Origin: a virus
Length of the DNA: 64,000 nt
Strand: one strand, 5' to 3'
Virus record (IMG/VR): IMGVR_UViG_3300027749_000073
Coordinates: 25,503 to 89,502 of that record
Part shown: piece by piece, positions 26,441 through 44,829 of the stretch
Layout: each line of letters begins with the position of its first letter
How positions within the stretch are numbered: position 1 is the first letter of the stretch
Made by a program: the position numbers and the translations under genes
The notes under the pieces: generated by a model
Seen by the model: only the letters and a program-made list of their open reading frames with translations
Databases searched by the model: none
What the model was told of the DNA's origin: nothing

Positions 26441-26457
26441 TTGGAGAATAAATAAAC

Positions 26458-26796
26458 ATGGCATCAGGAAGATTAGGCGTAGCAGACTTAGCGGCAACTA
26501 CATACACAAACGTGTATACTTGCCCTGCTACAACATTTACAGTTGCATCACTTACGATCTGTAACAGAAACGCAACATCAGTTCAAGTTCGTGTAGCATT
26601 AACAACAACATCAGCAGCAGGTAATACTGCTCCAGTAGATAACGCATTTCTTGAATATGGTGTTACTATTCCTGCTAACTCGGTGTTAGAACGTACTGGT
26701 TTAGTGTTGGATGCAACAAACAAATACTTAGTAGTATATTCAAGTACTACTGGTGTCAATGCTGTAGTGTACGGTATTGAAACAAGCACAGTTTAA
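26458..26796 (+). CDS. Small virion adaptor-like protein (paralogue 3)
   Basis: VASLTICNR...VLERTGLVL...VNAVVYGIE. Confidence 0.65.
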   Translation: MASGRLGVADLAATTYTNVYTCPATTFTVASLTICNRNATSVQVRVALTTTSAAGNTAPVDNAFLEYGVTIPANSVLERTGLVLDATNKYLVVYSSTTGVNAVVYGIETSTV

Positions 26797-26808
26797 TGGG
26801 AGAATAAT

Positions 26809-28422
26809 ATGGGAAGATTTGTCCCAATAACCGTAACAACAGTTATCGCAGAAAAGGCTGTTCCTGTAGTAACAGCTGCAAAGGCTTATTACGATGGTAA
26901 GCAATGTTGGCAATATAAAGTAGTGTATGATCGCCCTGGTAGTTATACCTGGACTGCACCAACTAATGCAGTTTGTGTCAGGACCGTATTAGTCGGGGGC
27001 GGCGGTAAGCCTAAGTGTAGCGGTACTAGCTTTGGCGGCGGAACCTGCTGCTCTTCTGCAGGCTCAGGTGGCGCATACAGTGAAAAATGTCACGGAGTAA
27101 CTGCAGGCACAACTACATTTAACCTAGTAGTAGGTAGACAAGAGCAAGATACTACACTAGCGTGTAATTCAGTTGCTGTCCACACCGCCGGCGGCGCAGC
27201 TGGATGTGTTCAAGGAGTAGCTACAGGCGGTGATTGGAACAGCACTGGAGGATTAGGTGGCTGGGGATGTACCTACTGCGGCGGCAGTTATAGTCATGGT
27301 ACTCAATGTTTCTATACTTGTTTTGCTAACTGTTGTGGTTATTGCATAGCGTATGTGTGCAACCCTACCGGAACTTGCGGTGATTGCGCAGCGTCATTTG
27401 CAGGCGGCGGATCAGCAGGCTCGCCTCGAGCACTCACTGGAGGATGTGCAAGTTGTATCTGTCAATACGTATCCAGCAGTGTTGCCGGCGGTGGCGCTGG
27501 TATAGGTGACGTATGTTGCAATATTCCAGTTTGGCATTACCCTTGTTGCAATTGTATATGCACTGTCTGGTTTTGTTGCGAAGCCACAAAACCGTGTTAC
27601 AATTACCCTACTAGTAATCAAGGCGGTGGTGGTTCGGAAGCCCGTTGTAATTTTTCATGCCGCAGCACAACGCAAACTTGTACATGGGGTTACTGGAAAT
27701 CAGGTGACGGCGGACCAGGAGGCCTTACTGATGAGAGTAGCACATACGGATGGGAATTTGAATGGGGATATCAGGGAAACTGTGTATATCCATTTGGTAT
27801 CCGCTGTATGGGACAAATTTCTCAACCGAGATGTGCATCTTCTGCACCGCAGAATGTGTGTGTTTTAAATCAACAGCAATGGGATATACAAAATATATCA
27901 GGATCAGGATCACCCGGAACTGGCTTGTTATATTGCTCATCATGCTACCCTTATGACTCTAACTCGACACCTCGCCCGCGAAATGCAGGCGAAGGCGCAG
28001 GAACAGGTGGTTTTTCATTATACAAGTGTGATGCTGAAAGCATGGATGATTTAGGCATAGGATACATGAGCAGCTCTGGTTATAACATGTTAAATTGGTT
28101 AAAGATTTGCCAATTAGGTATGTGCGGACAATGCGACCAAGCATGGCTTATGCAAGATGGGTTATTTCCATTCTTTATTACGTGTGCAGGTACACTAGGT
28201 GGCAGTGGAGGAGTAGGTATATGCGGTTATACTAGCAAAGCCGGAAAAGGTGGCGGCGGCGGCCAATCTAAAAATCAAATTTTATGTATATGTTACGGCG
28301 GTGCATTTAATTGTTGTAACCAGGTTGCAAGTACACCGTTAGCATTCCCGCCATGTTTACTAGACCAAATGGTAAGCAACGCAGGAACCGGCATGGCAAT
28401 TATATATTACAGGGAATCATAA
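26809..28422 (+). CDS. Cys/Gly-rich fibre-tip protein (paralogue C1)
   Basis: PGSYTWTAP...VLVGGGG glycine-rich phage fibre domain ending AGTGMAIIYY; about 50 Cys in 537 aa by hand count. Confidence 0.7.
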   Translation: MGRFVPITVTTVIAEKAVPVVTAAKAYYDGKQCWQYKVVYDRPGSYTWTAPTNAVCVRTVLVGGGGKPKCSGTSFGGGTCCSSAGSGGAYSEKCHGVTAGTTTFNLVVGRQEQDTTLACNSVAVHTAGGAAGCVQGVATGGDWNSTGGLGGWGCTYCGGSYSHGTQCFYTCFANCCGYCIAYVCNPTGTCGDCAASFAGGGSAGSPRALTGGCASCICQYVSSSVAGGGAGIGDVCCNIPVWHYPCCNCICTVWFCCEATKPCYNYPTSNQGGGGSEARCNFSCRSTTQTCTWGYWKSGDGGPGGLTDESSTYGWEFEWGYQGNCVYPFGIRCMGQISQPRCASSAPQNVCVLNQQQWDIQNISGSGSPGTGLLYCSSCYPYDSNSTPRPRNAGEGAGTGGFSLYKCDAESMDDLGIGYMSSSGYNMLNWLKICQLGMCGQCDQAWLMQDGLFPFFITCAGTLGGSGGVGICGYTSKAGKGGGGGQSKNQILCICYGGAFNCCNQVASTPLAFPPCLLDQMVSNAGTGMAIIYYRES

Positions 28423-28423
28423 T

Positions 28424-30040
28424 ATGGGAAGATATATTAGTACAGGGTCAGCACAATCAAACACGTGTAGTACTATTGTAAATACAACTTGTTATCAAGT
28501 TTCTGGACAAAAGTACTCACAGGATAATAACAGTTGCTGGCAAAATAGAATAATTGTTGATACACCGGGAAGTTATACATTTACAGTTCCGGCTGGTATA
28601 ACGTGTTTACGTGCAATTGCAGTTGGCGGAGGAGGGAAAGCTTCTTACGCAGCTTCTGCTACTTACAACTTTGGAGGAGCCGGCGGAGGCTATGTAGAGC
28701 GGACTGACACAGTGGCATCAGGATGCACTGTAACAATCGTAGTAGGTCGTCAGTCTCAAGATACAACCATTGCATATACAAATAGTAGTGCAACTGCTAG
28801 AACTCTAACAGGCGGCGGCGCTGTATGTAATAACCCAGGTGCTGCTACAGGCGGAGATTGGAATAGCAATGGAGGGGCACCAGGTTGTGGATATGCTAGC
28901 GGTACGTATTGCGGAGTTGGCAACTGTTTTAATATAACTACGTGTTGTGGTTATTGTGTAGTTTTCGGTGGTTACGGTATAACATATCAACCTGATAATA
29001 GTGCAGTATGTTGCACCGGCCACGCGCCCGGAGGCGGATCGGCAGGATCCTGGATTTGGGCATGCGGCGGGAGTGGCGGTACCGCATACTACGAAGACCA
29101 GATTGTAGGCGGCGGATATGGTCCAGTTGCAGGCGGAGGCGGTGGAATTGGATATATTTGTAAAAAAGGCGTAATGCAGTCAGTGTGTAATTGCATTTGC
29201 ACAAACGAACGTTGTAATCAAGGTTATCCAGGCGGACGAAAATTTTATTTTATGGGGACAGCAGACGGTGGTGGCGGTACTAAACTTCAAATGTGCGACA
29301 CATGTTATGCTAGAAATGTAGGGTTTAGGGGAATGTGTGTCGCCGGCCAATATTTTAATGGCAGCGGCGGTTGGGGCGGTTACGATAATGACGAAGGACG
29401 CGGTTCACGATTTATGTGGTACCACACTGGCTGCTTTGGCGCGGTAAATTATTATCAAGAGCATGGTCCACAGCCAAAGTGTTATACATGGCATGACATT
29501 CATGCCATGTGCGGCAGCGGTAGCAGCGGTGTGAGCTTTATGGACGGTGCTTGCTATCGTTCATGTAATAACTGGAATCATGGTCCGAGAATTGCAGGAA
29601 ACGCATGGCATGACGCAGGCGAAGGTGCAGGTACTGGCGGTATTGCTTATTACTGTTGCGAAGTGACATCAATGAACATACCAAACCAAATGGCTGGAGC
29701 AGCGTGTGCGTCATCTGTAAATTGGAATTTATTGTGTTGTTTAGGGTTATCTGGAAAAATATGTTGTGCAGACAAGATGCAAGATCAATTGTTTCCCTAC
29801 ATTACACACTGTGCAGGCACACTTGGTGGCGCCGGCGGAGTTGACATAGGCTGGATGTCAAGTAAAGCTGGAAAAGGCGGAGGAGCCGGCATGGTAAGAT
29901 GTTACTTGCTATGTGTATGTTGGGGCGGATCTTATAACCTGTGTAATGGTACAGGTCCTGCACTTGCATTCCCGCCATGTGATTTAGACTGGCGTGTTAA
30001 TACTGCTGGTACAGGTATGGCAATTTTATATTGGAAATGA
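28424..30040 (+). CDS. Cys/Gly-rich fibre-tip protein (paralogue C2)
   Basis: Colinear with 26809 (ATGGDWNS, CCGYC, AGEGAGTGG, CAGTLGG, LAFPPC); about 41 Cys in 538 aa by hand count. Confidence 0.7.
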   Translation: MGRYISTGSAQSNTCSTIVNTTCYQVSGQKYSQDNNSCWQNRIIVDTPGSYTFTVPAGITCLRAIAVGGGGKASYAASATYNFGGAGGGYVERTDTVASGCTVTIVVGRQSQDTTIAYTNSSATARTLTGGGAVCNNPGAATGGDWNSNGGAPGCGYASGTYCGVGNCFNITTCCGYCVVFGGYGITYQPDNSAVCCTGHAPGGGSAGSWIWACGGSGGTAYYEDQIVGGGYGPVAGGGGGIGYICKKGVMQSVCNCICTNERCNQGYPGGRKFYFMGTADGGGGTKLQMCDTCYARNVGFRGMCVAGQYFNGSGGWGGYDNDEGRGSRFMWYHTGCFGAVNYYQEHGPQPKCYTWHDIHAMCGSGSSGVSFMDGACYRSCNNWNHGPRIAGNAWHDAGEGAGTGGIAYYCCEVTSMNIPNQMAGAACASSVNWNLLCCLGLSGKICCADKMQDQLFPYITHCAGTLGGAGGVDIGWMSSKAGKGGGAGMVRCYLLCVCWGGSYNLCNGTGPALAFPPCDLDWRVNTAGTGMAILYWK

Positions 30041-30068
30041 CATATAATTTAATAATTAGGAGATTTAA

Positions 30069-30824
30069 ATGATTTGGGCAAAAATAGTAAACAAAGAAAT
30101 TATGCAAACGCACGATGAGGATCCGGCAGGGTTGTGGCATCCGGATGCAATTGCAAAAAATGATATTTTAGGATATTGGGAAGAAGTTCCGGAGTACGTT
30201 AACGTGGGCTGGAAATTTAAAAATGATGAGTGGATTTCGGGCGGACAGTGGCTAGAAGAGCAGGTGGCAGAAACTCCTATACTGCCACCTGGACCATCAT
30301 CGTGTCGTATAGATGCTTCAATTAGCAATGACCCAATGCTCGATACCTGCGAAGTGTTGTTTGATTCAAATGTTGCAGGAATATATGATTCATGGAGTAT
30401 TACTATTGACGGTGTTAATTATTCTACTAAAGTAACGTCTACTAATAGTGACACTAATGAATTAACTTGTACAACAACGGTGTGGTTATCAGTTGGTGAC
30501 CTAGTAACGTTTATGAATCCAGTATTTGGTGGTGTTGATAAACATACATCGTATGTTGTGCATTCTGTAGTTAGTCCAACGAAATTTAGAATAACTAACC
30601 TACAAACGCCAATAGAAGAATTCCAGTTAACTACTGGTACCGGTAATATGATGATGTCTAAAGGTCCAAATTTTAAACATACGTTTCAAAAAACCGATTC
30701 TCCGCAGCATATTGCAGTAGAAATTACAGCAACAAATTCAGACAACAGTGCTACATATTCTATGGAAAATGATTGTGCATTAATTATACCTGAAAAATGG
30801 GTTCCTTTATTTGCTAGACCATAA
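30069..30824 (+). CDS. Putative fibre assembly/tip-associated protein
   Basis: N-terminus WAKIV...WHPD...EEVPEYVNVGW resembles small proteins that follow Gly-rich fibres; last gene of the operon. Confidence 0.45.
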   Translation: MIWAKIVNKEIMQTHDEDPAGLWHPDAIAKNDILGYWEEVPEYVNVGWKFKNDEWISGGQWLEEQVAETPILPPGPSSCRIDASISNDPMLDTCEVLFDSNVAGIYDSWSITIDGVNYSTKVTSTNSDTNELTCTTTVWLSVGDLVTFMNPVFGGVDKHTSYVVHSVVSPTKFRITNLQTPIEEFQLTTGTGNMMMSKGPNFKHTFQKTDSPQHIAVEITATNSDNSATYSMENDCALIIPEKWVPLFARP

Positions 30825-30841
30825 AAAGTAAATTATTCTAT

Positions 30842-30865
30842 AAAAAGGCGAACAATCGCCTTTTT
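30842..30865. terminator. Bidirectional intrinsic terminator
   Basis: AAAAAGGCGA-ACAA-TCGCCTTTTT. Confidence 0.85.
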
Positions 30866-30899
30866 ATTTGAGTTGATAAAGTTTATAGTTAAATACAAT

Positions 30900-31685
30900 A
30901 TGACACAACTTTTTAATTTACCAATTCCAATATTATTTGTACAATACCCGGTCGGTGCAGGCGGTTGGTTTTTAACATCATTACTTTATACAGCATTTAA
31001 TCCGACTGAGTCTATTAAACAGAATGCGAGAGGGTCAGGGCATGCTAATACTAAAATTACATCGTTAAACAACTTTTGTACAATTTCATTAGACGACACG
31101 TATCAATCTATTTTATATCAGACTGAATCAACTATGTCTCAGTCTGATAAAATAGAATACCTTAGAAATACATTAATTAGCAATCCTTACAAAGAAGAAA
31201 AAATAATCCATACTATATCTATTCATTGCCAAGATATTAACATATTTTTAGAAGCATTTCCTAATAGTAAAGTAATACAGATTGAAATTAAAGATGAACA
31301 CATTCCGTTATGCACATTTAATTTTATTCATAAAGTATTAAAAGGAAATTTAATATATTTTGAAAAAATATGTAATGATTACTGCAAAAATTTTGATATT
31401 GAACAGACTTATTTAGAAAATATTGATCTAACGGCACTTACTAATTTAAAATGGATATCTAGTCTAATAGAACTTTCAAACATAAAAAGTGCAATATTAG
31501 AAAAGTTTGCAAGTCGAGTGCTAACTATAGAATATGATCAATATATAAAATATGCTAATGCTAACCACTTAATTGATGTTATTGAAAATTTTTTACAAGC
31601 AGAATGGACTATGCAGATAAAACAACAACTAGTAAATGAATTAGAATTATATCGAATAATTCAACCAACTATGCCAGAAACATAA
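30900..31685 (+). CDS. Sulfotransferase-like P-loop protein (degenerate)
   Basis: ILFVQYPVGAGGWFL loop; FPNSKVIQI; start ATG 30900 lies 4 nt after TAAATA. Confidence 0.45.
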   Translation: MTQLFNLPIPILFVQYPVGAGGWFLTSLLYTAFNPTESIKQNARGSGHANTKITSLNNFCTISLDDTYQSILYQTESTMSQSDKIEYLRNTLISNPYKEEKIIHTISIHCQDINIFLEAFPNSKVIQIEIKDEHIPLCTFNFIHKVLKGNLIYFEKICNDYCKNFDIEQTYLENIDLTALTNLKWISSLIELSNIKSAILEKFASRVLTIEYDQYIKYANANHLIDVIENFLQAEWTMQIKQQLVNELELYRIIQPTMPET

Positions 31686-31686
31686 C

Positions 31687-32796
31687 ATGAATATTATAAT
31701 ATTAACACCCGACAGAGTAGGATCAAGTTTACTGCAAAAGTATATTACAGTGACTATGCAACAATATGACTATCAACACCCAGTTATTAATTTACACGAA
31801 CTCACTAACGGAATTGAATCATATCATTCAACAAAATATAACCAACAAGTATTAGGAAAACCTGAAAAATCTAATTGGGGATACCATCAAACACTTGAAG
31901 AAATAACACAATTATTAAGTAGTGTAGACCATTACAAAGTATCAAGATTAGCACAATATCATATTTTAAATAGACAAGATTTATTAAAAGATCAACTAAG
32001 TTTTTATCAATATATTAATGACAATTTTTTTATAATTAGTGCCCGTAGACAAAATTTGTTCGAACATGCTTTAAGTTGGTGTATAGCTGCGTTTTCAAAA
32101 CACTTAAACGTGTATGACCATCAAGAAAAAATTAGTGTATTTAAGGATTTATACCAACGGAAAATTACTATAGATCAAGAAGTATTTAAAAATTATCTAG
32201 ACAAATATGTAAATTATCTAAAATGGACTGATAATCACTTTGCAATAAATTCAATATTTAATTATGAAAAAGATGTAATAGATCTTGAGTCTTACGTAGA
32301 CAATCTTGACATATTTCCAATCAACCATCACCGCGTAAGTTGGGCAGATCATTATGGCATTTCTTGGAAAGATTGGAACGCATGCCATTATCTTATCAGT
32401 GATATGAGCGGTTTTTCTACAGAGGTTCCATCCACTCTTCTTTTAGAAAATTCAAATACTATTCACCGGCCATTATTATCGATGAATATGAATCAACTAA
32501 TGACACGACCTGGACTAAGTGTAGCTCATCAAGAGTTCTTAACTACAAATTCAACAAATTATTTAAATACCTATAAAACAATATATAATTTAGTAGACGA
32601 CAGAACTTTAATTGCAGGGATGCCTATTAAGTTACAAACGCTAGCAGAAAAATCACTATTAGTAAAGAATTTTAAAGAATGTTTGAATACGTATAATGAT
32701 TGGAGCAATAAATCTTCGATAGGAAAGTTTTTATCCTTAGAAAAGTTAGGTAACACTGCATTAACTGAATTAGAAACTTGGTATAATCATAAATGA
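31687..32796 (+). CDS. Stf0-like sulfotransferase-fold protein
   Basis: IIILTPDRVGSSLL 5'-PSB-like loop, LHE, RRQNLFEHALSW 3'-PB-like motif, NYE. Confidence 0.55.
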   Translation: MNIIILTPDRVGSSLLQKYITVTMQQYDYQHPVINLHELTNGIESYHSTKYNQQVLGKPEKSNWGYHQTLEEITQLLSSVDHYKVSRLAQYHILNRQDLLKDQLSFYQYINDNFFIISARRQNLFEHALSWCIAAFSKHLNVYDHQEKISVFKDLYQRKITIDQEVFKNYLDKYVNYLKWTDNHFAINSIFNYEKDVIDLESYVDNLDIFPINHHRVSWADHYGISWKDWNACHYLISDMSGFSTEVPSTLLLENSNTIHRPLLSMNMNQLMTRPGLSVAHQEFLTTNSTNYLNTYKTIYNLVDDRTLIAGMPIKLQTLAEKSLLVKNFKECLNTYNDWSNKSSIGKFLSLEKLGNTALTELETWYNHK

Positions 32797-33548
32797 ATGT
32801 ATTTAACGAATTTATATTAACTACTACTGCAAACGAGTTTGACGCAACCTGCGGTATTGACAGTTTAGAGCATTGTAGAGACGTTATACATTATAAAATG
32901 TATGAAAAAAGTATTCTGTATGTGTATAATAGTTTTGGTTATCGAGATGAAGAATGGCCTTTGGATTTAACTGATGTTATTTGGTGTGTAGGTGACAGTT
33001 TTACAGTAGGACTTGGCCAACCGTACAACGAAACTTGGGTCAATCTTGTAGGAGAACAAACAGGAAAAAGAACAGTAAACGTTAGTATGAATGGAGCTAG
33101 TAATGATTGGATTGCGAGACGTGTACACGCTATTATTAATAATTTTAGTCCAAAAATTATTTTAATACAATGGAGTTATTGTCATCGAAGAGAAAGCACA
33201 GATACCTCGTTGATCGACGAGGATCGAAAAATTCATTTTATTAAGCCTGAAGGCGGTCGAGAACAGTTTGCAGATATGCAGGAATTAGATAAACAAAATT
33301 GTATAAACAACATACTTAATATCGATAATCATCCGTTTACTCAAATAGTACATTCATTTATTCCTAAATTTGCAAGAACTGATGATGCAGAATTTATATA
33401 CAATAAACTAACAACACACGATATTACCTTTTTTCCCGAACAGCCGCAGATTGATTTTGCAAGAGATCACCACCATTATGATATACAAACTGCTACTAAT
33501 TATGCAAACTTGTATCTAAGTAAATTAGAGATGCAGAATATTACTTAA
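32793..33548 (+). CDS. SGNH/GDSL-like hydrolase or acyltransferase
   Basis: NSFGYRD, VGDSFTVG, VNVSMNGAS, D..H near the C-terminus. Confidence 0.65.
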   Translation: MNVFNEFILTTTANEFDATCGIDSLEHCRDVIHYKMYEKSILYVYNSFGYRDEEWPLDLTDVIWCVGDSFTVGLGQPYNETWVNLVGEQTGKRTVNVSMNGASNDWIARRVHAIINNFSPKIILIQWSYCHRRESTDTSLIDEDRKIHFIKPEGGREQFADMQELDKQNCINNILNIDNHPFTQIVHSFIPKFARTDDAEFIYNKLTTHDITFFPEQPQIDFARDHHHYDIQTATNYANLYLSKLEMQNIT

Positions 33549-34059
33549 AGTTAGGACCATACACCCACCCAAAGATAGCATACCTTGAACCTTCTTCAAC
33601 AATTGATACTTTGTGCGGTAAAAAAGAAGGAAAAATTAACAATTTTCCAGACTGGCAGGTTACAGTTGACTCAGTTAGTGTTATAAATTCTCCTCCTTGA
33701 AAGTTATCGTTTAATAACAATGAAAACGATAATTTACGTTGAACATCTCCGGATATACAATCCATGTGCATACTGTTGTAGTGCATACCTGTATCATACC
33801 TACCAAAAAAACAATCGATATAGTTAAAATCTAAATCAAATTTAAAATGATTGCTGTTAATAAACTTAAGACTATCTATTAAAAACGGAATATCTGTAAT
33901 ATCAATGTTTGCAATCCGAACGTTTCTATGTGTCTGTTGTACTACATTTTCTAATTGTATAGTATCATGTTTATCAATTAGTTGATTACATTGTGCATTA
34001 TCTAGTAATGTTTTACTAATTACTACAATTTGTTCATAACTTTGGTTTTGCATTTGCAT
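33541..34059 (-). CDS. 2OG-Fe(II) oxygenase (prolyl-hydroxylase/PKHD type)
   Basis: HMD...RKLSFSLLL...GGEF...IFPSFLPHKV...GSRY. Confidence 0.85.
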   Translation of the reverse strand: MQMQNQSYEQIVVISKTLLDNAQCNQLIDKHDTIQLENVVQQTHRNVRIANIDITDIPFLIDSLKFINSNHFKFDLDFNYIDCFFGRYDTGMHYNSMHMDCISGDVQRKLSFSLLLNDNFQGGEFITLTESTVTCQSGKLLIFPSFLPHKVSIVEEGSRYAIFGWVYGPNFK

Positions 34060-34627
34060 ATATTTTTTCTTCTGTAAAGTAGTTATTTATGCTGGGTTCA
34101 ATGCACATTTCCATGTTGATAGCAATTCTATAATTGAAACTACTATGAAATAACGGCTCGTGTACTGTGTGATTTGGCATAATTAATAAATCACCTTCGT
34201 CAGGTTGAAATTGGATAACTTCTGAGTTAGTAGTGTACAAATTCAAACCCCCTTCGGTACTATTAATATCTTTTGGCATTGTTAAATAGTATATTGCGTT
34301 AATAGAACTAGTTTTAATATGATTATGTGCATTAGTTCTAAAAGTTTCTGTATTGTAGACATTAGCCCAACACCATGTTTTATGTATTGGAGATAATTTT
34401 ACATTCCCAAATAAAGTTGTAACAGTATCAAAAAAGAAATTATAGAGTATCTTAAAATCACCAAAATTATCCTGTATATGAAAAGTATATCCGCCATGGT
34501 AATTTGCTGTATCTTTTTGCGATATCACTGTATCAATCATACGTGCTTTTACATCTAAATCTAACAACAATTGTGTTTCTAGCACTTGTGGGAAAATTGG
34601 ATTAAAAAAAATATTAGTCACTGGCAT
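34034..34627 (-). CDS. Putative 2OG-Fe(II) oxygenase (2OG-FeII_Oxy_5-like)
   Basis: WANVY, HNH, AIYYL, EGDLLIMP...H, RIAI. Confidence 0.8.
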   Translation of the reverse strand: MPVTNIFFNPIFPQVLETQLLLDLDVKARMIDTVISQKDTANYHGGYTFHIQDNFGDFKILYNFFFDTVTTLFGNVKLSPIHKTWCWANVYNTETFRTNAHNHIKTSSINAIYYLTMPKDINSTEGGLNLYTTNSEVIQFQPDEGDLLIMPNHTVHEPLFHSSFNYRIAINMEMCIEPSINNYFTEEKIYANAKPKL

Positions 34628-35235
34628 AAAATATTAAAACTAATAATAACTCTATCTTCCAACGATAAATTAGGGTTAGTTTCGTGTTTTAAGTATCCGG
34701 GAAAAATTACTAATTTGCCAGGAACTACACTAATAGGAAATGTCATATTTCCTCGCCACTTAGTAAACGATGGTTCGTTACTTAACGCATATTCTTTAGG
34801 ATCTAACAGGATTAAATCACCGCAATTTTCAGCAGCATTTACATAATAACTACCGCTCCAATGTGCAGTACCGTGATTGTGATGAGGGACAAATGAACCA
34901 TGCGGATAAACATTGGCCCATGCATTTGTAAAATTCCAAGTTTGATTAAAGTCTAATTGATTAAAAAAATCTGTAATTATTGGAGAAATTGCGGTAAAAA
35001 AATCATTAAAATTTTCATTGTCAATAAGATTTCCGTGATTGAATGAACTATAGCCAACATCTGCTGCAATATCTGTTAAAATATTACTATGCCAATAGTG
35101 ACTAAGTAATCGTTTATCATCAATTGTATCAAACAATGTTTGTATTTTAAGATGTAATGATTTATTTAAAGTGCTAGCGTCAGGTATAATTGCTTCTAAC
35201 ACAGGCACGGCAAACGCATTTATAATTTTTTTCAT
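34618..35235 (-). CDS. Putative 2OG-Fe(II) oxygenase (TIGR02466-like)
   Basis: WANVYP, HNH, WSGSYYV, GKLVIFPGYLKHET, RVIISFN. Confidence 0.85.
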   Translation of the reverse strand: MKKIINAFAVPVLEAIIPDASTLNKSLHLKIQTLFDTIDDKRLLSHYWHSNILTDIAADVGYSSFNHGNLIDNENFNDFFTAISPIITDFFNQLDFNQTWNFTNAWANVYPHGSFVPHHNHGTAHWSGSYYVNAAENCGDLILLDPKEYALSNEPSFTKWRGNMTFPISVVPGKLVIFPGYLKHETNPNLSLEDRVIISFNILCQ

Positions 35236-35314
35236 ATTTCCCTCACAAAAATCTAGTAATACAGTATATAGCTATTATTACTGATAAGGAACAATTAAAA
35301 TGAAAATTTACTGA

Positions 35315-35343
35315 TTGACACGCAGTCAATAGTACTGTATAAT
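35315..35343 (+). promoter_or_regulatory. Consensus sigma70 promoter with overlapping inverted repeat
   Basis: TTGACA-17 nt-TATAAT; ATTGAC-N5-GTCAAT overlaps the -35 box. Confidence 0.85.
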
Positions 35344-35355
35344 AAGATATGAGAT

Positions 35356-35363
35356 TATAAATA
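35356..35363 (+). promoter_or_regulatory. T4 late promoter (exact TATAAATA)
   Basis: TATAAATA about 30 nt before ATG 35393. Confidence 0.7.
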
Positions 35364-35392
35364 AAATTAACTAAGCATATTAAAAGGATAAC

Positions 35393-36322
35393 ATGAAGAA
35401 AATATTTTTTATTAACGGCGGTGCCGGACGCGTACTTGCTAGCATTCCTGCATTAGAAGAAAGCCACCGTCGTAGTGAGTTAGGCGGCATTATATGCGAA
35501 GGCGGTATGGAATTTTATATGGGCCATCCAATACTGCAACATGTTGCATGGGATGTTAATCACAAAGGACTTTTTGAAAATCTAATTAAGGATAACCAAT
35601 GTGTTAGCCCTGAACCATATCGCGACTACGAATACTATAATCAGAGATCTAGTCTTCAACAAAGTTTTTGGTGGGAAATTATTGGTGAAAGAATTAACAA
35701 AAATGTTCAACCTACACTAATCTTAAATAAATCAGAAGAAATGATGGCATTAGAGATCATTGGTCAGGTGGTTCAACAGCACAAAAAAGAAAAAACTATT
35801 GTAATACAGCCATTTGGAAGATCAAGTAGTTTAAGTAACAGCAGTATTGTTTATGATCAAAGTTCTCGTAGTTTAGAACAATCGACATTTATGGAATTAG
35901 TTGCAGAATTATCAAAAGATTATAACATTATGTATATGGGTGAACATAAGTTAAATGTAGTTAATCTTCCAATATTTCAACCTGACCAACAAATGTCATT
36001 GCGTATTTGGGCAGCAATTATTGAAGCAACTGATTATTTTATTGGCTGTGATAGTGTTGGACAACATATTGCATATTCATTTAATAAACCGGGTACAATT
36101 GTATGTGGAAGTACGTTCCCTATTAATATTACCTATCCGGAACATTTTAATATTATTGAGAAAAAAGATGCAGTTCGCCAATATAGTCCAATTAGGATTG
36201 CGGGATTTGCTTCAGAAGAAGCTGATAGAATGAATGATACAATTATGGATTTTAGCAAAGAAGAGCTTAAATCTGTAATTGAAAATATCAAAGCACATAT
36301 TAAGAAAACAACAAAAGGATAA
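35393..36322 (+). CDS. GT-B glycosyltransferase, GT9/heptosyltransferase-like
   Basis: GGAGRVLASIPAL; IVIQPFG; LRIWAAIIE..DYFIGCDSVGQHIA...KPG..V.GST. Confidence 0.7.
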   Translation: MKKIFFINGGAGRVLASIPALEESHRRSELGGIICEGGMEFYMGHPILQHVAWDVNHKGLFENLIKDNQCVSPEPYRDYEYYNQRSSLQQSFWWEIIGERINKNVQPTLILNKSEEMMALEIIGQVVQQHKKEKTIVIQPFGRSSSLSNSSIVYDQSSRSLEQSTFMELVAELSKDYNIMYMGEHKLNVVNLPIFQPDQQMSLRIWAAIIEATDYFIGCDSVGQHIAYSFNKPGTIVCGSTFPINITYPEHFNIIEKKDAVRQYSPIRIAGFASEEADRMNDTIMDFSKEELKSVIENIKAHIKKTTKG

Positions 36323-36325
36323 TAC

Positions 36326-38023
36326 ATGTGGTTATTAGGAATTAATGTTGGCCATAATGGGTCAGCAGCATTATATAAAGATAGTAAATTAATCTTTTAT
36401 ATTGAAGAAGATCGATTAAGTCGGTTAAAATACGACGGTAATCCGTTTTTAGGTATTGAAAAAGCATTTGAATATACTGATCATATTGATTTCGTTATAT
36501 TATGCGGCACTAGCAATGCATTTGGGAAAGTACCGTGGACTGCTGAAGATGCATATACGTGTTTAGTTAGAAAAAAACAACCTGGAATTCCTGTAGAAAC
36601 TATCAAATTAGGTGATGATCATCATATGACTCATGCAGTAACTGCGTTTTATAATTCAGGGTTTGATGATGCTGCTGCAATAGTGATTGATGGAGCCGGT
36701 AGCGGAATTAATATTCCAGATTTTGAACAAATACAACATGATACATGGGAAGTAGAATCAATTTGGTCATTGTCGTATCCTGCAGGCATCAAGAAGCATT
36801 TAGTAAACTATGGCACTAATCTTGTAGATAGTCTGTCGTTACAAGACGACGACTGTGAAATAGAAATTTCAGACGGACACGGCATTACAAAAACATACGA
36901 AGCAGTTACACAATACTTAGGATTTCATGCTATTGAAGCTGGGAAAACTATGGGTATTGCACCATATGGCAAGCCAAATGACTCTATTAAAATACACGAA
37001 GGCAGATTTAGTAATAGAAACTTAATTAAACCTAAATTTCCTGCAGGTAACGTTATTAGATGTGATTTAAATCCAGAGTTAAAAGAACATGAAGGTGACA
37101 CATCGTGGCATACTGATCCAAATTTAATTGATGATTTTAGAAAAGACTTGGCGTATGCAGTGCAAAAATCAGCCGAAGAACGAGTTAGCAATCTTATTAG
37201 AAAAACGATTGAGATCACTGGTAAAAAACAAATTGTAATGGCAGGTGGTTTTGTATTAAATTGTGTTGCAAACTATGAATTCTTAAAAGAGTTTCCAGAT
37301 GTTGAATTTTATCATGAGCCTGTAAGTCACGACGGCGGTAATGTAATGGGTGCATGCCAGCATGTATACAGAACAATGACACAGGACAGCGTTAAAGCAC
37401 CGTTAACTAGTTTATACATTGGACCTGATAATTCTGCAAATTATACAGACATTGATTTTACTGACTTTGATGTAACTGACACAACTGCAGCAGATATTGC
37501 AAAATTGATTGCAGATGAACATATTGTATGTTTATATCAAGGTAGATCAGAAGCTGGTCCTCGCGCACTAGGTAACAGAAGTATTTTGTTTGATCCATCA
37601 GTTGTTAATGGTAAAGATATAGTAAATGAAGTTAAACATAGAGAATGGTTTAGACCATTTGCAGGAACAGTATTAGCTGAAAAAGCAAATGATTGGTTTG
37701 ATTTTAGATCAAGAACTGATAGCCCATTTATGATGTATGCTGTAAATGTATTAGAAGATAAACAAAGTCTTATTCCTGCAATTACACATGTTGACGGGAC
37801 TTGCAGAATTCAAACTGTAACATCTAAACAAAATAAACATTATTACGAATTAATTAGTGAGTTTGATAAAATTAAAGATATTCCAATCTTGTTTAATACT
37901 AGCTTTAATCTAGCAGGTGATCCACTAGTCGAAACAGTTAAAGAAGCATTAGACACTTTAAGAAAATCAGATTTAAAATACTTATGGTTACCTGAAATTG
38001 GAAAATTATTATCTAAACAATAA
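36326..38023 (+). CDS. Carbamoyltransferase (NodU/CmcH family)
   Basis: HNGSAAL, EEDRLSR.K, HHMTHA, DGAG, GKTMG.APYG, GGFVLNCVAN, EAGPRALGNRSIL, KHREWFRPFA, HVDGTCRIQT, NTSFN. Confidence 0.95.
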   Translation: MWLLGINVGHNGSAALYKDSKLIFYIEEDRLSRLKYDGNPFLGIEKAFEYTDHIDFVILCGTSNAFGKVPWTAEDAYTCLVRKKQPGIPVETIKLGDDHHMTHAVTAFYNSGFDDAAAIVIDGAGSGINIPDFEQIQHDTWEVESIWSLSYPAGIKKHLVNYGTNLVDSLSLQDDDCEIEISDGHGITKTYEAVTQYLGFHAIEAGKTMGIAPYGKPNDSIKIHEGRFSNRNLIKPKFPAGNVIRCDLNPELKEHEGDTSWHTDPNLIDDFRKDLAYAVQKSAEERVSNLIRKTIEITGKKQIVMAGGFVLNCVANYEFLKEFPDVEFYHEPVSHDGGNVMGACQHVYRTMTQDSVKAPLTSLYIGPDNSANYTDIDFTDFDVTDTTAADIAKLIADEHIVCLYQGRSEAGPRALGNRSILFDPSVVNGKDIVNEVKHREWFRPFAGTVLAEKANDWFDFRSRTDSPFMMYAVNVLEDKQSLIPAITHVDGTCRIQTVTSKQNKHYYELISEFDKIKDIPILFNTSFNLAGDPLVETVKEALDTLRKSDLKYLWLPEIGKLLSKQ

Positions 38024-38594
38024 ACGCATATTTTTTACAGGTGTGCCGGGTAGTAGATGGAGTGGTATAGCACGTACTATTGAAGATAGTATTACTAGCT
38101 TTAACACATCGGATAGATCTGTAGATAAACAATATACGCATCATGCATTTAGTGGTCACGTTGGTGCGTATTTTGGAAAAGAAATGGAATATGATTCATG
38201 TTTAGATGATCCTAATTATTTAGATTCCGCTTGGTTAACTCCGGGCGGAACTAGACTTATTAAAAGTCATGATTGGGCGTATAAATTAGATAGTATTAAA
38301 GAAGTGTATCCTAATGATTGGATTATGTTAGTATATCGACCCGATGCAAGTAGTTATGCATGGTGGTTTGAAGCAGGGGGATTTCAAATTAGTTATCCTA
38401 ATTATAGTTGGTATAAAAATCACGCTAAAATGCTAGCAGAGATTACTATACAAAATAATAATATCTTAGAATTTGGATATAAGCATAATGTAACATGGGA
38501 ATATTTTACACCTCAGTGGCTTAGTAAACAGTTTAATCAAACAGTAGAGTTTACACAAACTTGGCCAGATATATTAGTAGCAATTGTAAAATGA
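37998..38594 (+). CDS. Sulfotransferase-like P-loop protein
   Basis: IFFTGVPGSRWSG, LIKSH, IMLVYR. Confidence 0.5.
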   Translation: MENYYLNNKRIFFTGVPGSRWSGIARTIEDSITSFNTSDRSVDKQYTHHAFSGHVGAYFGKEMEYDSCLDDPNYLDSAWLTPGGTRLIKSHDWAYKLDSIKEVYPNDWIMLVYRPDASSYAWWFEAGGFQISYPNYSWYKNHAKMLAEITIQNNNILEFGYKHNVTWEYFTPQWLSKQFNQTVEFTQTWPDILVAIVK

Positions 38595-38821
38595 GAGATC
38601 ACGTCTGGTATATCAAATACGCAAGTGCAGCTACTATTCTAACTGCTATGATTTTTCATGTATTAGGACTTACTCCGTGGAATAGCATACTACAAATGAT
38701 TGGTGCTAGTGGATGGATATATGTAGGATACAGATGGAAAGAACCTGCATTACTATTCAATTTTATTCCACAGTTTTTTATTATAATTCCTGGATTAATC
38801 TATCTTTATTTTTTTAAATAA
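38591..38821 (+). CDS. Small membrane protein
   Basis: ATG 38591; about three hydrophobic segments. Confidence 0.55.
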   Translation: MRDHVWYIKYASAATILTAMIFHVLGLTPWNSILQMIGASGWIYVGYRWKEPALLFNFIPQFFIIIPGLIYLYFFK

Positions 38822-39543
38822 ACAAAAAATAATCGATTATTATTATCTTTTTTAAATGTTTCTAATGAAAGATTATATTGCTTTGCAAAATTATATGCAA
38901 TTTCAAATGACCATGCAAAAATATCTACGTATGGTCCATTTGGATGTAATATACCTGGATTTGCTCTAATATAAATTTTGCCATTTGGAGCAAGCAACGA
39001 CACAATTTTTGAAAATCTTTGATCAATATCATCGTGCGAATTAAAATTTAACGATCCTAAAACAAGTATATGATCAAATAACAATTCTGTAATATTAAAG
39101 TCTAAAATATCAACCATATATTCAGCACAATTATTATACGGATCGATACCTATTAAATTGTGTATTCTTCCTTTAAATGGATGATATCCACAACCAACGT
39201 CTAACACTGCATTAGGCTGTTGGTTATTAATTTCATCAACTAGATTCCAACCGCTATATGTGTATGCTTCAGTTTTTGGTTTCCATATTTCACCAAAAAA
39301 TCTATTTAAATATCGAGCATCTAATGCATTTACAACTGTGTCAATCGTGCCATTAACATCTACTGTATCAAAATTTAACTCTTGTTTAATTGTATTTTGA
39401 AATTTAAGATATCTTGCAGGAGTCCATGGTAATTCGTTTATAACACTTTTTGAATTTAATTCAAGTCTTGTATTGTTATATTTTGGTAAATTGAAGGATT
39501 GTTCTAAATTTTTTATAATTAGATTAAAAATTCTAGTATTCAT
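38806..39543 (-). CDS. Class I SAM-dependent methyltransferase with N-terminal extension
   Basis: VLDVGCG, IGIDP, FDHILVLGSLNF, LAPNG; probable start MNTRIF. Confidence 0.8.
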   Translation of the reverse strand: MNTRIFNLIIKNLEQSFNLPKYNNTRLELNSKSVINELPWTPARYLKFQNTIKQELNFDTVDVNGTIDTVVNALDARYLNRFFGEIWKPKTEAYTYSGWNLVDEINNQQPNAVLDVGCGYHPFKGRIHNLIGIDPYNNCAEYMVDILDFNITELLFDHILVLGSLNFNSHDDIDQRFSKIVSLLAPNGKIYIRANPGILHPNGPYVDIFAWSFEIAYNFAKQYNLSLETFKKDNNNRLFFVYLKK

Positions 39544-39562
39544 TAATGATTTTCCGTATGTG

Positions 39563-39598
39563 ATAAATAATATTATAAAAATACAAAAATTTTGTATT
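39563..39598 (+). promoter_or_regulatory. Late promoter plus perfect palindrome
   Basis: ATAAATA 39563-69; AATACAAAA-A-TTTTGTATT 39580-98 between divergent genes. Confidence 0.6.
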
Positions 39599-39625
39599 AT
39601 AGTGTAATTATCAAGGAGATAATAT

Positions 39626-40324
39626 ATGTTAACAGGAAAAGAGTTTGTTGCAAAAATCAAACAAGAGAACGCTGCATTATTTAAAGCTAGCCAAATTAAT
39701 GTAAAAGCATACTTTGACAGTAACCCAAGTCAAGAAGAATTAGTTGACCATTTTATTGGTCGTATGGTTAATGAGCGCATGAATATGGTTGAAATTAGCC
39801 AAGCTATTGCAGAATTACCAGCTGATACTGATCCAGTTGAATTGCAATTATTAACACAACAAGCCCATGATGAGGCTGTACATTTTCGTCTAGTTAAAGA
39901 AGTAATTGAACACATTCAAGGTTCGCCTGTTGATGTTAATGCTGCAATTGCTGCAGAAGCTGCAAAACCTACAGCTAAAGGTGCATCGTTGTTAGCAAAA
40001 TACGGCGCAGAAACTGATCCGCTTGCGTTAGCTGCATATCAACTAATTGCCGAAGGCCGTGCTGAAGCAGTTTGGAATCAAATGGCAGAATGCATTGAAG
40101 ATACTTTTATTAGTAAATCATATGCGAAAATTGCCAAAGACGAAGGATTTCATTCTAATATTGGCGGATGGAAACTTGAAAAATTAGCAGTAGATTCAAC
40201 TACACAAGCATACGTTACAACTATTGTAGATCAAATGCGTAAAGATTTATTTGATATTAGCTGCAAAAATACACTCGAAGTTCCTGCTGCAAAACAATTA
40301 GTTACCGACGCATACGGTTGGTAA
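39626..40324 (+). CDS. Ferritin-like di-iron carboxylate protein
   Basis: Paired E...DExxH motifs: NERM/HDEAVH and AEGRA/KDEGFH; helical composition. Confidence 0.8.
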   Translation: MLTGKEFVAKIKQENAALFKASQINVKAYFDSNPSQEELVDHFIGRMVNERMNMVEISQAIAELPADTDPVELQLLTQQAHDEAVHFRLVKEVIEHIQGSPVDVNAAIAAEAAKPTAKGASLLAKYGAETDPLALAAYQLIAEGRAEAVWNQMAECIEDTFISKSYAKIAKDEGFHSNIGGWKLEKLAVDSTTQAYVTTIVDQMRKDLFDISCKNTLEVPAAKQLVTDAYGW

Positions 40325-40331
40325 TACACTT

Positions 40332-40360
40332 AAGACGGGGTTACTCCCGTCTTTCTTTCA
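40332..40360 (+). terminator. Rho-independent terminator
   Basis: AAGACGGG-GTTACT-CCCGTCTT then T-rich. Confidence 0.8.
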
Positions 40361-40379
40361 CCTTTTTTAAAATAATAAT

Positions 40380-40808
40380 ATGAAAGCACAACGCATTTTA
40401 GTAATGGGATTGCCTGGTGCTGGCAAAACTTACTTAACATCACACATTGTAACTGAATTAAAAAACCGTAATAAACTTGTTAAATGGTTAAATGCAGACA
40501 CTATACGAGAACAATACAATGATTGGGATTTTAGTACAGAAGGTAGAATCCGTCAAAGTAAACGTATGCGAGATCTTGCAGATTTGTCAACAGATATAGA
40601 TTTTGTCATATGCGATTTTGTTGCACCATTGATTGAAATGAGAGATATTTTTGATGCAACATATGTAATCTGGGTTGATACAATTAATACATCACAATTT
40701 GCAGATACTAACAGTATGTTTATTCCTCCTCAAAATTATACATTTCGTGTTACTGAACAACACAGTGAAAAATGGGGTAAAATTATTGTGGATGATATTG
40801 TTTTATGA
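40380..40808 (+). CDS. cysC: Adenylylsulfate (APS) kinase-like protein
   Basis: GLPGAGKT, WLNADTIR, DFSTEGRIRQ, ICDFVAP...R; shorter than bacterial CysC. Confidence 0.7.
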   Translation: MKAQRILVMGLPGAGKTYLTSHIVTELKNRNKLVKWLNADTIREQYNDWDFSTEGRIRQSKRMRDLADLSTDIDFVICDFVAPLIEMRDIFDATYVIWVDTINTSQFADTNSMFIPPQNYTFRVTEQHSEKWGKIIVDDIVL

Positions 40809-41431
40809 AACAACTGTTATTGTTAACTGGACCTCAAGGTGCCGGAAATCATTTATGGAGCAAAATTTTTAGTTTACATCCCGAGGTATATGGATGGAAA
40901 ACATTATTAGAAAACTATTGGGAAGCACATAGATTTGCAGAACCGTTTTGTAATTATTGGAAAGATCACAGTTTATTAGATACATTTGATTGGTCACAAA
41001 GTAATTTTTACTTTACTAGTATTAGTTGCCCATTAGGAATACAAGAACATAAATGGATGCCTGATATTGCAGGATTTACTGCTGCAGTTGAACAACATAA
41101 GGTTAATGTAACTATCGTAGTTTGCGGACGTGATCAAACTATTTTAGAAAATCAACAAATTAGATTAAGAAGTGAACATACCTTTCCGCTGTTTATGGAA
41201 CAGTTACTTACTTTTAAGCAGCCAATATTTTTAAGTTATGAGTTGTTGTATTTGTATAAAGAAAAGTATTTACAAAGTCTTAATCTTAATATTCCAATTG
41301 CGTACAATGATACCCGTATATACAAAATACTTAAAGATGACAGTAATAAAAAATATATACATTATGTTGATAATTATATTCTTGACCAATGTAATAAAAC
41401 TGGGATTCCTTTAAAAGAGCTACCAAAATGA
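40805..41431 (+). CDS. Sulfotransferase-like P-loop protein
   Basis: LLLTGPQGAGNHLWSKIFSLHPEV, IVVCGRD, FLSYE. Confidence 0.55.
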   Translation: MKQLLLLTGPQGAGNHLWSKIFSLHPEVYGWKTLLENYWEAHRFAEPFCNYWKDHSLLDTFDWSQSNFYFTSISCPLGIQEHKWMPDIAGFTAAVEQHKVNVTIVVCGRDQTILENQQIRLRSEHTFPLFMEQLLTFKQPIFLSYELLYLYKEKYLQSLNLNIPIAYNDTRIYKILKDDSNKKYIHYVDNYILDQCNKTGIPLKELPK

Positions 41432-42069
41432 AAAAACTTTTAATATTAACAGGGCCGCAAGGATCAGGTAATCATATTTTTAGTAGAGTATTAAGCACAC
41501 ATCCTAACGTTGGCGGATGGAAAGAATTACTAAGTAGCTATTGGATTCCTAGTGACCAAGAAACATTTGCAAAATTTTGGGTATATCCAGAACTATTAAC
41601 AGAACAAGATTTTGATGGATTTGATTTTTGGCTTGCAAATGTTAGTTGCCCTTTTTTCTACGACGGAATAAGATATGTTCCAAAGATATTAGAAGTAGCC
41701 AATCGCGCGTCGTTGTTTGGTATAACAGTTGAAATTGCAATCGTAGTTAGAGATCAAACCATTAACTCACTCCAACAAGAGCGTGTAGGCGGCCAAATTA
41801 CACTATCAATTGCTCAGGATTATTATTATACTACCTTAGTACCAAGCAACTACAAAATACATTTCATAGATCACGAAGCCTTCTTTTTACATAAGTCGTA
41901 CTATCTAAAATGGTTAAGTTCTATCCTTGATTTTCCTATTTTATACGACAGCAATGAAGTAATGAAATTTATAGAAACTGATGCTAATTCTAAATATGTA
42001 CAATCAATTGAGACACACTGGCTTGATAGTGAAATTAGACACGGTCGTAAACCGTTTACTGATCGATGA
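41428..42069 (+). CDS. Sulfotransferase-like P-loop protein (tandem paralogue)
   Basis: LILTGPQGSGNHIFSRVLSTHPNV, IVVRD, FIDHE. Confidence 0.55.
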   Translation: MKKLLILTGPQGSGNHIFSRVLSTHPNVGGWKELLSSYWIPSDQETFAKFWVYPELLTEQDFDGFDFWLANVSCPFFYDGIRYVPKILEVANRASLFGITVEIAIVVRDQTINSLQQERVGGQITLSIAQDYYYTTLVPSNYKIHFIDHEAFFLHKSYYLKWLSSILDFPILYDSNEVMKFIETDANSKYVQSIETHWLDSEIRHGRKPFTDR

Positions 42070-42614
42070 ACATAGGGTTAAGTCAAAGGATTTGGTATGA
42101 CAAAGGACTGTCTTATGATGCACTCGATAGTTCTTGGTATTCATTTTTAAAAGATCATCAAATAACTGCTATTCAAAATCGAATTGATCAAAATTTTGAT
42201 TACCTTGCAGATACACTTGATAGTTTTATCATTACTGGTGGCAATGATGCATCTATTAGAAGAATAGTTGAAATTAAATTAGCTACTGCAATGATGATAC
42301 GAGGTAAACCTGTTTTAGGCATTTGTCATGGTGCATTTTTATTAACTGAACTGTTAGGTGGCACTATCATGTTGTGCAATAATCATACAGATACTAATCA
42401 CATAGTAATTATAGATAACACTAGCATAATGGTTAATTCATTTCATACATTGCAAATAACTAACCCTCCGCCTGCTGCAACAGTATTGGCAGTTGATACA
42501 GAGGGGTATTGTGAATCGTGGATTGATAACTCATTAGCTGGTATAGTGTGGCATCCTGAAAGAATGAAATTTCCAGTTGTGCCTAACGACATTACAGTAT
42601 TACTGCATATTTGA
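42066..42614 (+). CDS. Class I glutamine amidotransferase (peptidase C26/PuuD-like)
   Basis: IITGG, PVLGICHG, VNSFH, WHPE catalytic triad. Confidence 0.85.
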   Translation: MNIGLSQRIWYDKGLSYDALDSSWYSFLKDHQITAIQNRIDQNFDYLADTLDSFIITGGNDASIRRIVEIKLATAMMIRGKPVLGICHGAFLLTELLGGTIMLCNNHTDTNHIVIIDNTSIMVNSFHTLQITNPPPAATVLAVDTEGYCESWIDNSLAGIVWHPERMKFPVVPNDITVLLHI

Positions 42615-43172
42615 ATCTAAAGATTTAGCAAAATCTAATAGATTAGGAAATTCACTAGCATTGCTACCAACTGGTAGTTTTACTGATCCGTTGTTAATTA
42701 ATACTGGCGATGATTTTACTTTTGATGCTGCTTTAACATCAGCAGCTGACGAACCAATATAAATTGAATCTTTCCAAATAATCATATTTTCTTTTTGTGC
42801 TCGATCAAACATAGCTGTGTTTGGTTTAACATAGTCATCATGTTTGTCAGTACCAGGTGCAAAATACACATTTTTTATTCTTCCACCTGATTGTTGAATA
42901 AATTCAGTTACTGATCCAATGATATTTTCAAAATCTTGTTGTTGTAAATTCTTAGTACGTAACGTAGGTTGCCCACTAATAATTAAAAAATCATAACCCT
43001 TTCTTACTAATGTTTGAATTGCTAACTCTGCCCCTTCAAATATTTGTAACTGATCACCAGGTGTAAATGCAGTTGAGTTATCAAGTAATACTCCAAATAT
43101 TTCTAAGCCAATTACTTTGCGATTTGCCTGCAGTTCCCATACATCTTTAACATATTTTAAATATCGGTTCAT
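42600..43172 (-). CDS. GmhB-like HAD phosphatase homologue with degenerate active site
   Basis: GmhB-like layout (LVRKGY..LIISGQ, GGRIKNVYF, KPNTAMF, SIYIG..ADVKAA) but motif I DxD reads EIF; start 43172 has SD GGAG and an upstream TAAATA. Confidence 0.65.
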   Translation of the reverse strand: MNRYLKYVKDVWELQANRKVIGLEIFGVLLDNSTAFTPGDQLQIFEGAELAIQTLVRKGYDFLIISGQPTLRTKNLQQQDFENIIGSVTEFIQQSGGRIKNVYFAPGTDKHDDYVKPNTAMFDRAQKENMIIWKDSIYIGSSAADVKAASKVKSSPVLINNGSVKLPVGSNASEFPNLLDFAKSLDSNMQ

Positions 43173-43260
43173 ATATACTCCGTGTTGTGAAATATTTAGT
43201 AAGCAACAATATTTACGCCTTGCTTTTTGATAAATATAAGATAATGAATGGTGCATATAT

Positions 43261-44292
43261 ATGAGTTTTTTAAATTATTTTTTACCTGGACTAGGATCTA
43301 CCCTTAAATTTAAAAATAGTCCTAAACTATCTTACAAAGGAACTGTAATTACAGTTACACCTAATGTAGTGGTAGACAGCTGGTTTGTGACTGATTTTTC
43401 AAGTGCAACATACGACATTGCAATTGAATATGGTATAAATGATATCGAACACGTTAATATTGTTGTAACATCACGGGTTAATCAAGCATCTATAATGATA
43501 TACGGTATTACAAATTTAGGAAAAGATTTAGTTAAATTTACTGCAACTGTTGATTCATCAAAGGTATATTTAATTGCAAATCCATATACTGATGGAACTA
43601 ATTCGTTAGTTAATATAAAACTTATTGTAAAATCAACATATTCTGAAAAAATAATGCCGTCACAAGTTCCAACTGTTACTGATTCCTCATCTAATATAGG
43701 CGGCGCAGATGGATCGTTTTTAAATTGGCAAAATTCAAATTTAGCAAACGGCACATTGTATGTAGCTGATGATGGAAATTTAAGTATTAGCAACATTGGT
43801 ATTATTACTGTACCGTTAAACACTAGTTTAGCATCGGATTTTATTATGTCAACGTTGCATATACAGAATACAGATGGGTATATCGGAATTACTACTAATA
43901 GTTTAACCAATACTCTTACATTTACACTTAATTCAACTCCTAATTTAAATGTAATTAATTCTGTAGCAGCAACTCCGGCAGTATTATCAACGATTAATAA
44001 TGTTAGTTTTGGCCTTACAACACCAGCTCCTGCAACATTTTCTAATTTAACAAACAATGCATCAACAACGCTATCACCTAGCAATCTAACAGTAACTATT
44101 GCACCTAGCGGCACTGGAACTATTAATATTTCTGCAGGAACTACTGGCACTATCGATAATACATCATTTGGAAGTACAACCGCAACAACTGGAAATTTTA
44201 ACAGTTTGATGTTAAGTGGTACTGCAATTAATAAAACAAATTTGGTAAAAATTAAAGAATTAACACCAATACTTTTCTGTGGAGCAATATAA
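43261..44292 (+). CDS. Virion fibre/structural protein
   Basis: Thr/Ser/Asn-rich; GTIDN..GSTT..TG.F repeats; late box ATAAATA at 43230. Confidence 0.55.
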   Translation: MSFLNYFLPGLGSTLKFKNSPKLSYKGTVITVTPNVVVDSWFVTDFSSATYDIAIEYGINDIEHVNIVVTSRVNQASIMIYGITNLGKDLVKFTATVDSSKVYLIANPYTDGTNSLVNIKLIVKSTYSEKIMPSQVPTVTDSSSNIGGADGSFLNWQNSNLANGTLYVADDGNLSISNIGIITVPLNTSLASDFIMSTLHIQNTDGYIGITTNSLTNTLTFTLNSTPNLNVINSVAATPAVLSTINNVSFGLTTPAPATFSNLTNNASTTLSPSNLTVTIAPSGTGTINISAGTTGTIDNTSFGSTTATTGNFNSLMLSGTAINKTNLVKIKELTPILFCGAI

Positions 44293-44816
44293 TGAACGGT
44301 TATACATATATTAGTGTATCAGGTCAAAACACAATTGGATTAAATTATTCAAATAATACACTTAATTTAGTTGCATCTGGAGGTATCAATCTAACTACAA
44401 ATTCAACTACACAAACATTAACTATTAATACTAGTTCAAATTTTTCAGTTAGCGACCTTAATGTAACTAACTCATTAACTCTTAATCCAGTTAATATTGG
44501 ATCTATTGACAACGTATCAATTGGATCTATTACACCAAGAATTGGAGTATTTTCAACTCTTGTTGCAACTGGAGCAGTAACTTTTAATCCAGCAAATGCA
44601 AACATTACTATTAGCCCAATCGGATCTGGAACTCTTATTATTAATCCAGCAACTACTGGATCTATTAATAATGTTAATATAGGAAGTACTGTACCAGCTG
44701 CTGGTACATTTACTAATGTAACAATAACATCATTACAACAATCTAATGCTGCCAGTGCAGTAACAAAAGGGTTTGCAACTGCCCTTGCGGCAGCATATGG
44801 TGTTGCATTATCATAA
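44292..44816 (+). CDS. Virion fibre/structural protein
   Basis: GSIDNVSIGS repeats; C-terminus ALAAAYGVALS. Confidence 0.55.
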   Translation: MNGYTYISVSGQNTIGLNYSNNTLNLVASGGINLTTNSTTQTLTINTSSNFSVSDLNVTNSLTLNPVNIGSIDNVSIGSITPRIGVFSTLVATGAVTFNPANANITISPIGSGTLIINPATTGSINNVNIGSTVPAAGTFTNVTITSLQQSNAASAVTKGFATALAAAYGVALS

Positions 44817-44829
44817 TGAAGATTAACAT

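What the first reader, a model, noticed from the sequence alone, without database searches (positions are those of the whole stretch)
26809..43172. Candidate new system: Cys-rich virion tip proteins beside a phage-encoded sulfation/glycosylation/carbamoylation cluster
Seen: two fibre-tip proteins with 8-9% Cys are followed, after one small gene, by ~16 genes that sit inside the structural region and carry late TAAATA boxes. They include five sulfotransferase-fold proteins, an APS kinase, GT9-like transferase, NodU carbamoyltransferase, SGNH protein, three 2OG-Fe(II) oxygenases, methyltransferase, ferritin-like di-iron protein, GATase and a GmhB homologue. Established: APS kinase makes PAPS for sulfotransferases; NodU/CmcH enzymes O-carbamoylate hydroxyls; GT9 and GmhB belong to ADP-heptose chemistry; sulfo-, carbamoyl-, methyl- and acyl-transfer together is the logic of Nod-factor glycan decoration. 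Inference: the phage builds a decorated glycan or other modification on its own virion proteins (hydroxylated residues or Cys) or on the host surface, for receptor mimicry, stability or superinfection exclusion. Alternative: DNA hypermodification, since phage NodU-family enzymes can carbamoylate hydroxymethylcytosine, but no base hydroxymethylase is present in this window.
Basis: partly seen in the sequence, partly recalled or inferred. Interest (0 to 1): 0.85.

Follow-up and report, generated by a model that had tools for sequence, protein, structure and literature searches.

The report
Phage fibre-tip genes with sugar-tailoring enzymes
A freshwater T4-like cyanophage carries, between its tail-fibre genes, two cysteine-rich host-recognition tip proteins followed by sugar-transfer, carbamoyl-transfer and probable sulfate-transfer enzymes that may decorate the fibres, but most of this gene set is already listed in cyanophages and its target is unproven.

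Summary
Two 537/538-aa proteins have 9.3% and 7.6% Cys. One small gene later come 16 enzyme-like genes, all inside the fibre module of an uncultured lake T4-like cyanophage.

Firmly identified:
- three 2OG-Fe(II) oxygenases
- a GT9-fold transferase
- a NodU/TobZ-type carbamoyltransferase
- a class-I amidotransferase-like hydrolase
- a GmhB-like HAD protein whose catalytic aspartates are lost

Only two of the five "sulfotransferases" have fold support, a third is a lead, and two rest on motifs alone. The "APS kinase" is a truncated relative.

The cluster is a composite, not one system.
- The GT9-like/carbamoyltransferase pair follows Cys/Gly-rich tip genes in most related loci. This is the cyanomyovirus "LPS gene" cassette listed since 2005-2010, and this scan has already found it on at least 16 other genomes.
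- The methyltransferase, di-iron, amidotransferase and sulfotransferase-like block also occurs elsewhere in other phages, far from fibres.

Best reading (about 0.45): late-made enzymes put a carbamoyl-heptose glycan on the phage's own tip proteins, with optional extra tailoring. Remodelling of the host surface remains a serious rival. DNA modification is unlikely. This is a new variant of a known kind.

The parts
19163..26440 (+). Giant fibre protein (2425 aa), upstream context
   Evidence: ORF. Related fibre segments lie upstream of the tip genes in related loci. 25% Ser+Thr, 0.4% Cys.
26458..26796 (+). Small fibre-associated protein p112, preceded by ATAAATA at 26448
   Evidence: phrog_11338 'tail fiber protein', 7.8e-7. 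Conserved before the tip genes in S-CAM1, P-SSM2 and most related IMG/VR loci. Heptamer position.
26809..28422 (+). cysA: Cys/Gly-rich fibre-tip protein of Pam3 gp24 type
   Evidence: 50 Cys (9.3%), 17.1% Gly. 139 metagenome relatives. AF2 pLDDT 76.9. VIA Z 11.0 to the cyanophage Pam3 fibre, 178 residues aligned, 26% identity. 117 BFVD matches at E<=1e-3, mostly 'glycine-rich domain' phage proteins. Conserved Gly motifs alternate with variable Cys-rich loops.
28424..30040 (+). cysB: paralogue of cysA
   Evidence: 41 Cys (7.6%), 19.5% Gly. 38% identical to cysA. PF21722 Gly_rich_2 at 7.8e-4, 20 bits, below the 24.3 cut-off.
30069..30824 (+). p251a: unknown; candidate fibre chaperone (inference only)
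   Evidence: No family match except a sub-threshold LtfC-like beta-sandwich hit, E 0.085. Follows cysB in 13 of the 20 window-clade loci. The position mirrors chaperone gp25 after fibre gp24 in Pam3.
30873..31685 (+). st270: unknown protein with a P-loop-like motif; sulfotransferase assignment unverified
   Evidence: No Pfam, PHROG, NCBIfam or PDB-profile match. hhalign to the st369 family: probability 0.5%. Travels with st369 and the SGNH gene in 9 of 14 window-clade loci.
31687..32796 (+). st369: probable Stf0-like sulfotransferase (lead)
   Evidence: Atlas feature score 0.90-0.91 to Stf0/Sulfotransfer_3 clusters. 227 cluster representatives. Of 40 homologues, one matched Sulfotransfer_1 (6.7e-4) and one matched Sulfotransfer_3 (1.5e-3). 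G12, S13 nearly invariant and R121 invariant. No direct Pfam or PDB hit.
32793..33548 (+). SGNH/GDSL-like hydrolase or acyl-esterase
   Evidence: Lipase_GDSL_2 at 2.2e-3, 19 bits, below the 32.9 cut-off. Weak NCBIfam SGNH hits. GDS, GASND and DHHH motifs are visible in the translation.
33541..34059 (-). 2OG-Fe(II) oxygenase (172 aa)
   Evidence: PF13640, 5.3e-12, 47 bits against cut-off 27. phrog_61. ATAAATA on the minus strand at 34090.
34034..34627 (-). 2OG-Fe(II) oxygenase (197 aa)
   Evidence: PF13759, 1.1e-6, 29.4 bits against cut-off 27.
34618..35235 (-). 2OG-Fe(II) oxygenase (205 aa), TIGR02466 family
   Evidence: PF13759, 4e-19, 69.3 bits. TIGR02466, 79.9 bits against cut-off 62.5.
35356..35363 (+). 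TATAAATA, T4-type late-promoter-like box, starting 37 nt before the GT gene
   Evidence: It is 1 of only 2 plus-strand TATAAATA in the 64-kb window. That this octamer is the T4 late-promoter consensus is recalled, not tested.
35393..36322 (+). GT309: GT9-fold (heptosyltransferase-like) glycosyltransferase
   Evidence: phrog_8954, 3e-98. AF2 pLDDT 93.3. VIA Z 21.6 (3tov), 20.6 (TibC), 19.7 (WaaF), 18.4 (WaaC), against 12.4 or less for other GT-B folds. 9 of 35 homologues hit PF01075. 2710 metagenome relatives.
36326..38023 (+). CBT565: NodU/CmcH/TobZ-type O-carbamoyltransferase
   Evidence: Carbam_trans_C 4.4e-60 and Carbam_trans_N 8.5e-20. Matches in 141 phage records. Directly follows the GT in 72 of 76 loci.
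37998..38594 (+). st198: unknown, abundant viral family; sulfotransferase assignment unverified
   Evidence: 1304 relatives; none of the 120 listed carries a Pfam domain. hhalign probability about 1% to the st213 and st369 families. The PGSRWS and YRPD motifs are invariant.
38806..39660 (-). mt284: probable class-I SAM methyltransferase (true start probably 39543)
   Evidence: Sub-threshold Methyltransf_23/25/12 hits, E 0.045-0.11. A VLDVGCG motif is present. Homologues are 244 or 171 aa long.
39563..39569 (+). ATAAATA box before the di-iron gene
   Evidence: Position. RNA-library contigs of two runs of one study begin at 39589 and 39591.
39626..40324 (+). fer232: ferritin-like di-iron protein
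   Evidence: Ferritin_2 E 0.023, below cut-off. E50, E83-x-x-H86, E143/E147 and E173-x-x-H176 are invariant in 5 homologues. No PDB hit.
40380..40808 (+). apsk142: truncated APS-kinase-like P-loop kinase
   Evidence: PF01583, 39.8 bits against cut-off 21.1, but only model positions 4-91 of 152. Best PDB matches are APS kinases, 1.5e-5; DGD reads NAD. All NCBIfam matches are below cut-off.
40805..41431 (+). st208: sulfotransferase-fold paralogue
   Evidence: 33% identical to st213, E 4e-38. Shares the TGPQGxGNH loop and the RD motif.
41428..42069 (+). st213: sulfotransferase-fold protein with an atypical P-loop
   Evidence: The Atlas's own model has pTM 0.84. TM 0.64-0.66 to clusters in which 98-100% of members carry Sulfotransfer_1/_3. 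The nearest cluster has 9886 viral members. No Pfam or PDB sequence hit.
42066..42614 (+). gat182: class-I amidotransferase / gamma-glutamyl hydrolase-like
   Evidence: Peptidase_C26 3.9e-13 and GATase 4.4e-6. Best NCBIfam match is gamma-glutamyl-CDP-amidate hydrolase, 5.5e-16, 59 bits, below cut-off 250.
42600..43172 (-). GmhB-like HAD-IIIA pseudo-phosphatase (ORF runs to 43256; start at 43172 fits the homologues)
   Evidence: HAD-SF-IIIA, 55.5 bits against cut-off 44.6. GmhB PRK08942, 56.8 bits, below cut-off 178. Motif I DxD reads EIF here and TLF, SLF or GLF in clade relatives. It is intact (DRDG) in most of the loci of the other clade that carry heptose genes.
43261..46548 (+). Downstream fibre-like genes p343, p174, p572 (context)
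   Evidence: 26-28% Ser+Thr. p572 matches phrog virion and baseplate families, 1e-46. ATAAATA at 43230.

Best explanation
The region is the distal tail-fibre module of an uncultured freshwater T4-like cyanomyovirus. An AT-rich, composite set of tailoring genes has accumulated inside it.

Shown:
- cysA and cysB are Pam3-gp24-type fibre proteins, with a TNF-like plus glycine-rich lattice and long, variable, Cys-rich loops.
- A GT9-fold transferase and a NodU-type O-carbamoyltransferase form a widely conserved pair just downstream of such tip genes, behind a TATAAATA box.
- In the sister clade, and elsewhere in genomes of the window's own clade, the pair is accompanied by genes for a nucleotide-activated heptose: kinase, nucleotidyltransferase, epimerase, cupin and an intact GmhB.

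Inferred:
- Late in infection the GT transfers heptose from a phage- or host-made NDP-heptose onto the phage's own tip or fibre proteins, as TibC/AAH do on bacterial adhesins. The carbamoyltransferase then O-carbamoylates that sugar, as WapO is thought to do on LPS heptose.
- The three 2OG oxygenases either create acceptor hydroxyls on the protein or modify the sugar.
- Two further cassettes add optional decoration such as sulfate, methyl or acyl groups. They are st270-st369-SGNH, and methyltransferase-st198-di-iron-kinase-st208-st213-amidotransferase.
- The GmhB-like gene beside the pair is a dead paralogue with a non-catalytic role or none.
For: - Fibre identity of cysA: VIA Z 11.0 to the Pam3 fibre and 9.2 to the Bxb1 tail tip, with the next unrelated hit at 6 or less. 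There are 117 BFVD hits. Conserved Gly motifs alternate with variable loops. The published gp24 function is receptor recognition (passages read).
- GT9 fold: plus 9 of 35 homologues in PF01075. TibC, a protein heptosyltransferase, ties for the top match (Z 20.6).
- Linkage: the carbamoyltransferase adjoins the GT in 72 of 76 loci. A fibre or p112 gene lies upstream in 46 of 55 loci. An ORF with at least 5% Cys lies within 7 kb upstream in 44 of 55 loci, against a 2.7% background. GT identity across these loci runs from 41% to 86%.
- Heptose genes: found in 20 of 44 sister-clade loci with at least 9 kb downstream, and elsewhere in G003 and G005 of the window's clade.
- Timing: TATAAATA starts 37 nt before the GT gene. 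All 5 ATAAATA boxes in 26000-44000 precede starts.
- Transcription: contigs from RNA libraries of two lake studies cover parts of 35468-42989.
- Chemical precedents: 7-O-carbamoyl-heptose with putative carbamoyltransferase WapO in the Pseudomonas core (passages). A 2010 prediction of hydroxylase plus sulfotransferase systems acting on tail-collar or glycine-rich proteins (passages).
Against: - No experiment or mass-spectrometry data. The acceptor is inferred from gene order alone, and fibre modules of T4-like phages are also places where unrelated cargo genes accumulate.
- GT9 enzymes mostly act on LPS. The genes were first annotated as LPS genes.
- The methyltransferase-st198-di-iron-amidotransferase-st208-st213 block lies beside clamp-loader, PhoH, lysozyme, DnaJ and ClpB genes in 4 other contigs. 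No fibre, GT or carbamoyltransferase lies within 10 kb of it there.
- The own 89.5-kb contig holds no heptose-activation gene, and the adjacent HAD is dead. The donor in this phage is therefore unknown.
- Five loci have the GT but no Cys-rich ORF upstream: L056, L058, L060, L079 and L105. Four lack an adjacent carbamoyltransferase.
- A near-identical strain keeps the enzymes at about 98.7% identity while its tip genes are strongly diverged. Any recognition of tip loops by the enzymes would have to be loose.
- Five enzyme genes are on the opposite strand. The first oxygenase gene has no late box.
- RNA-library contigs may include DNA carry-over.
Confidence: 0.45

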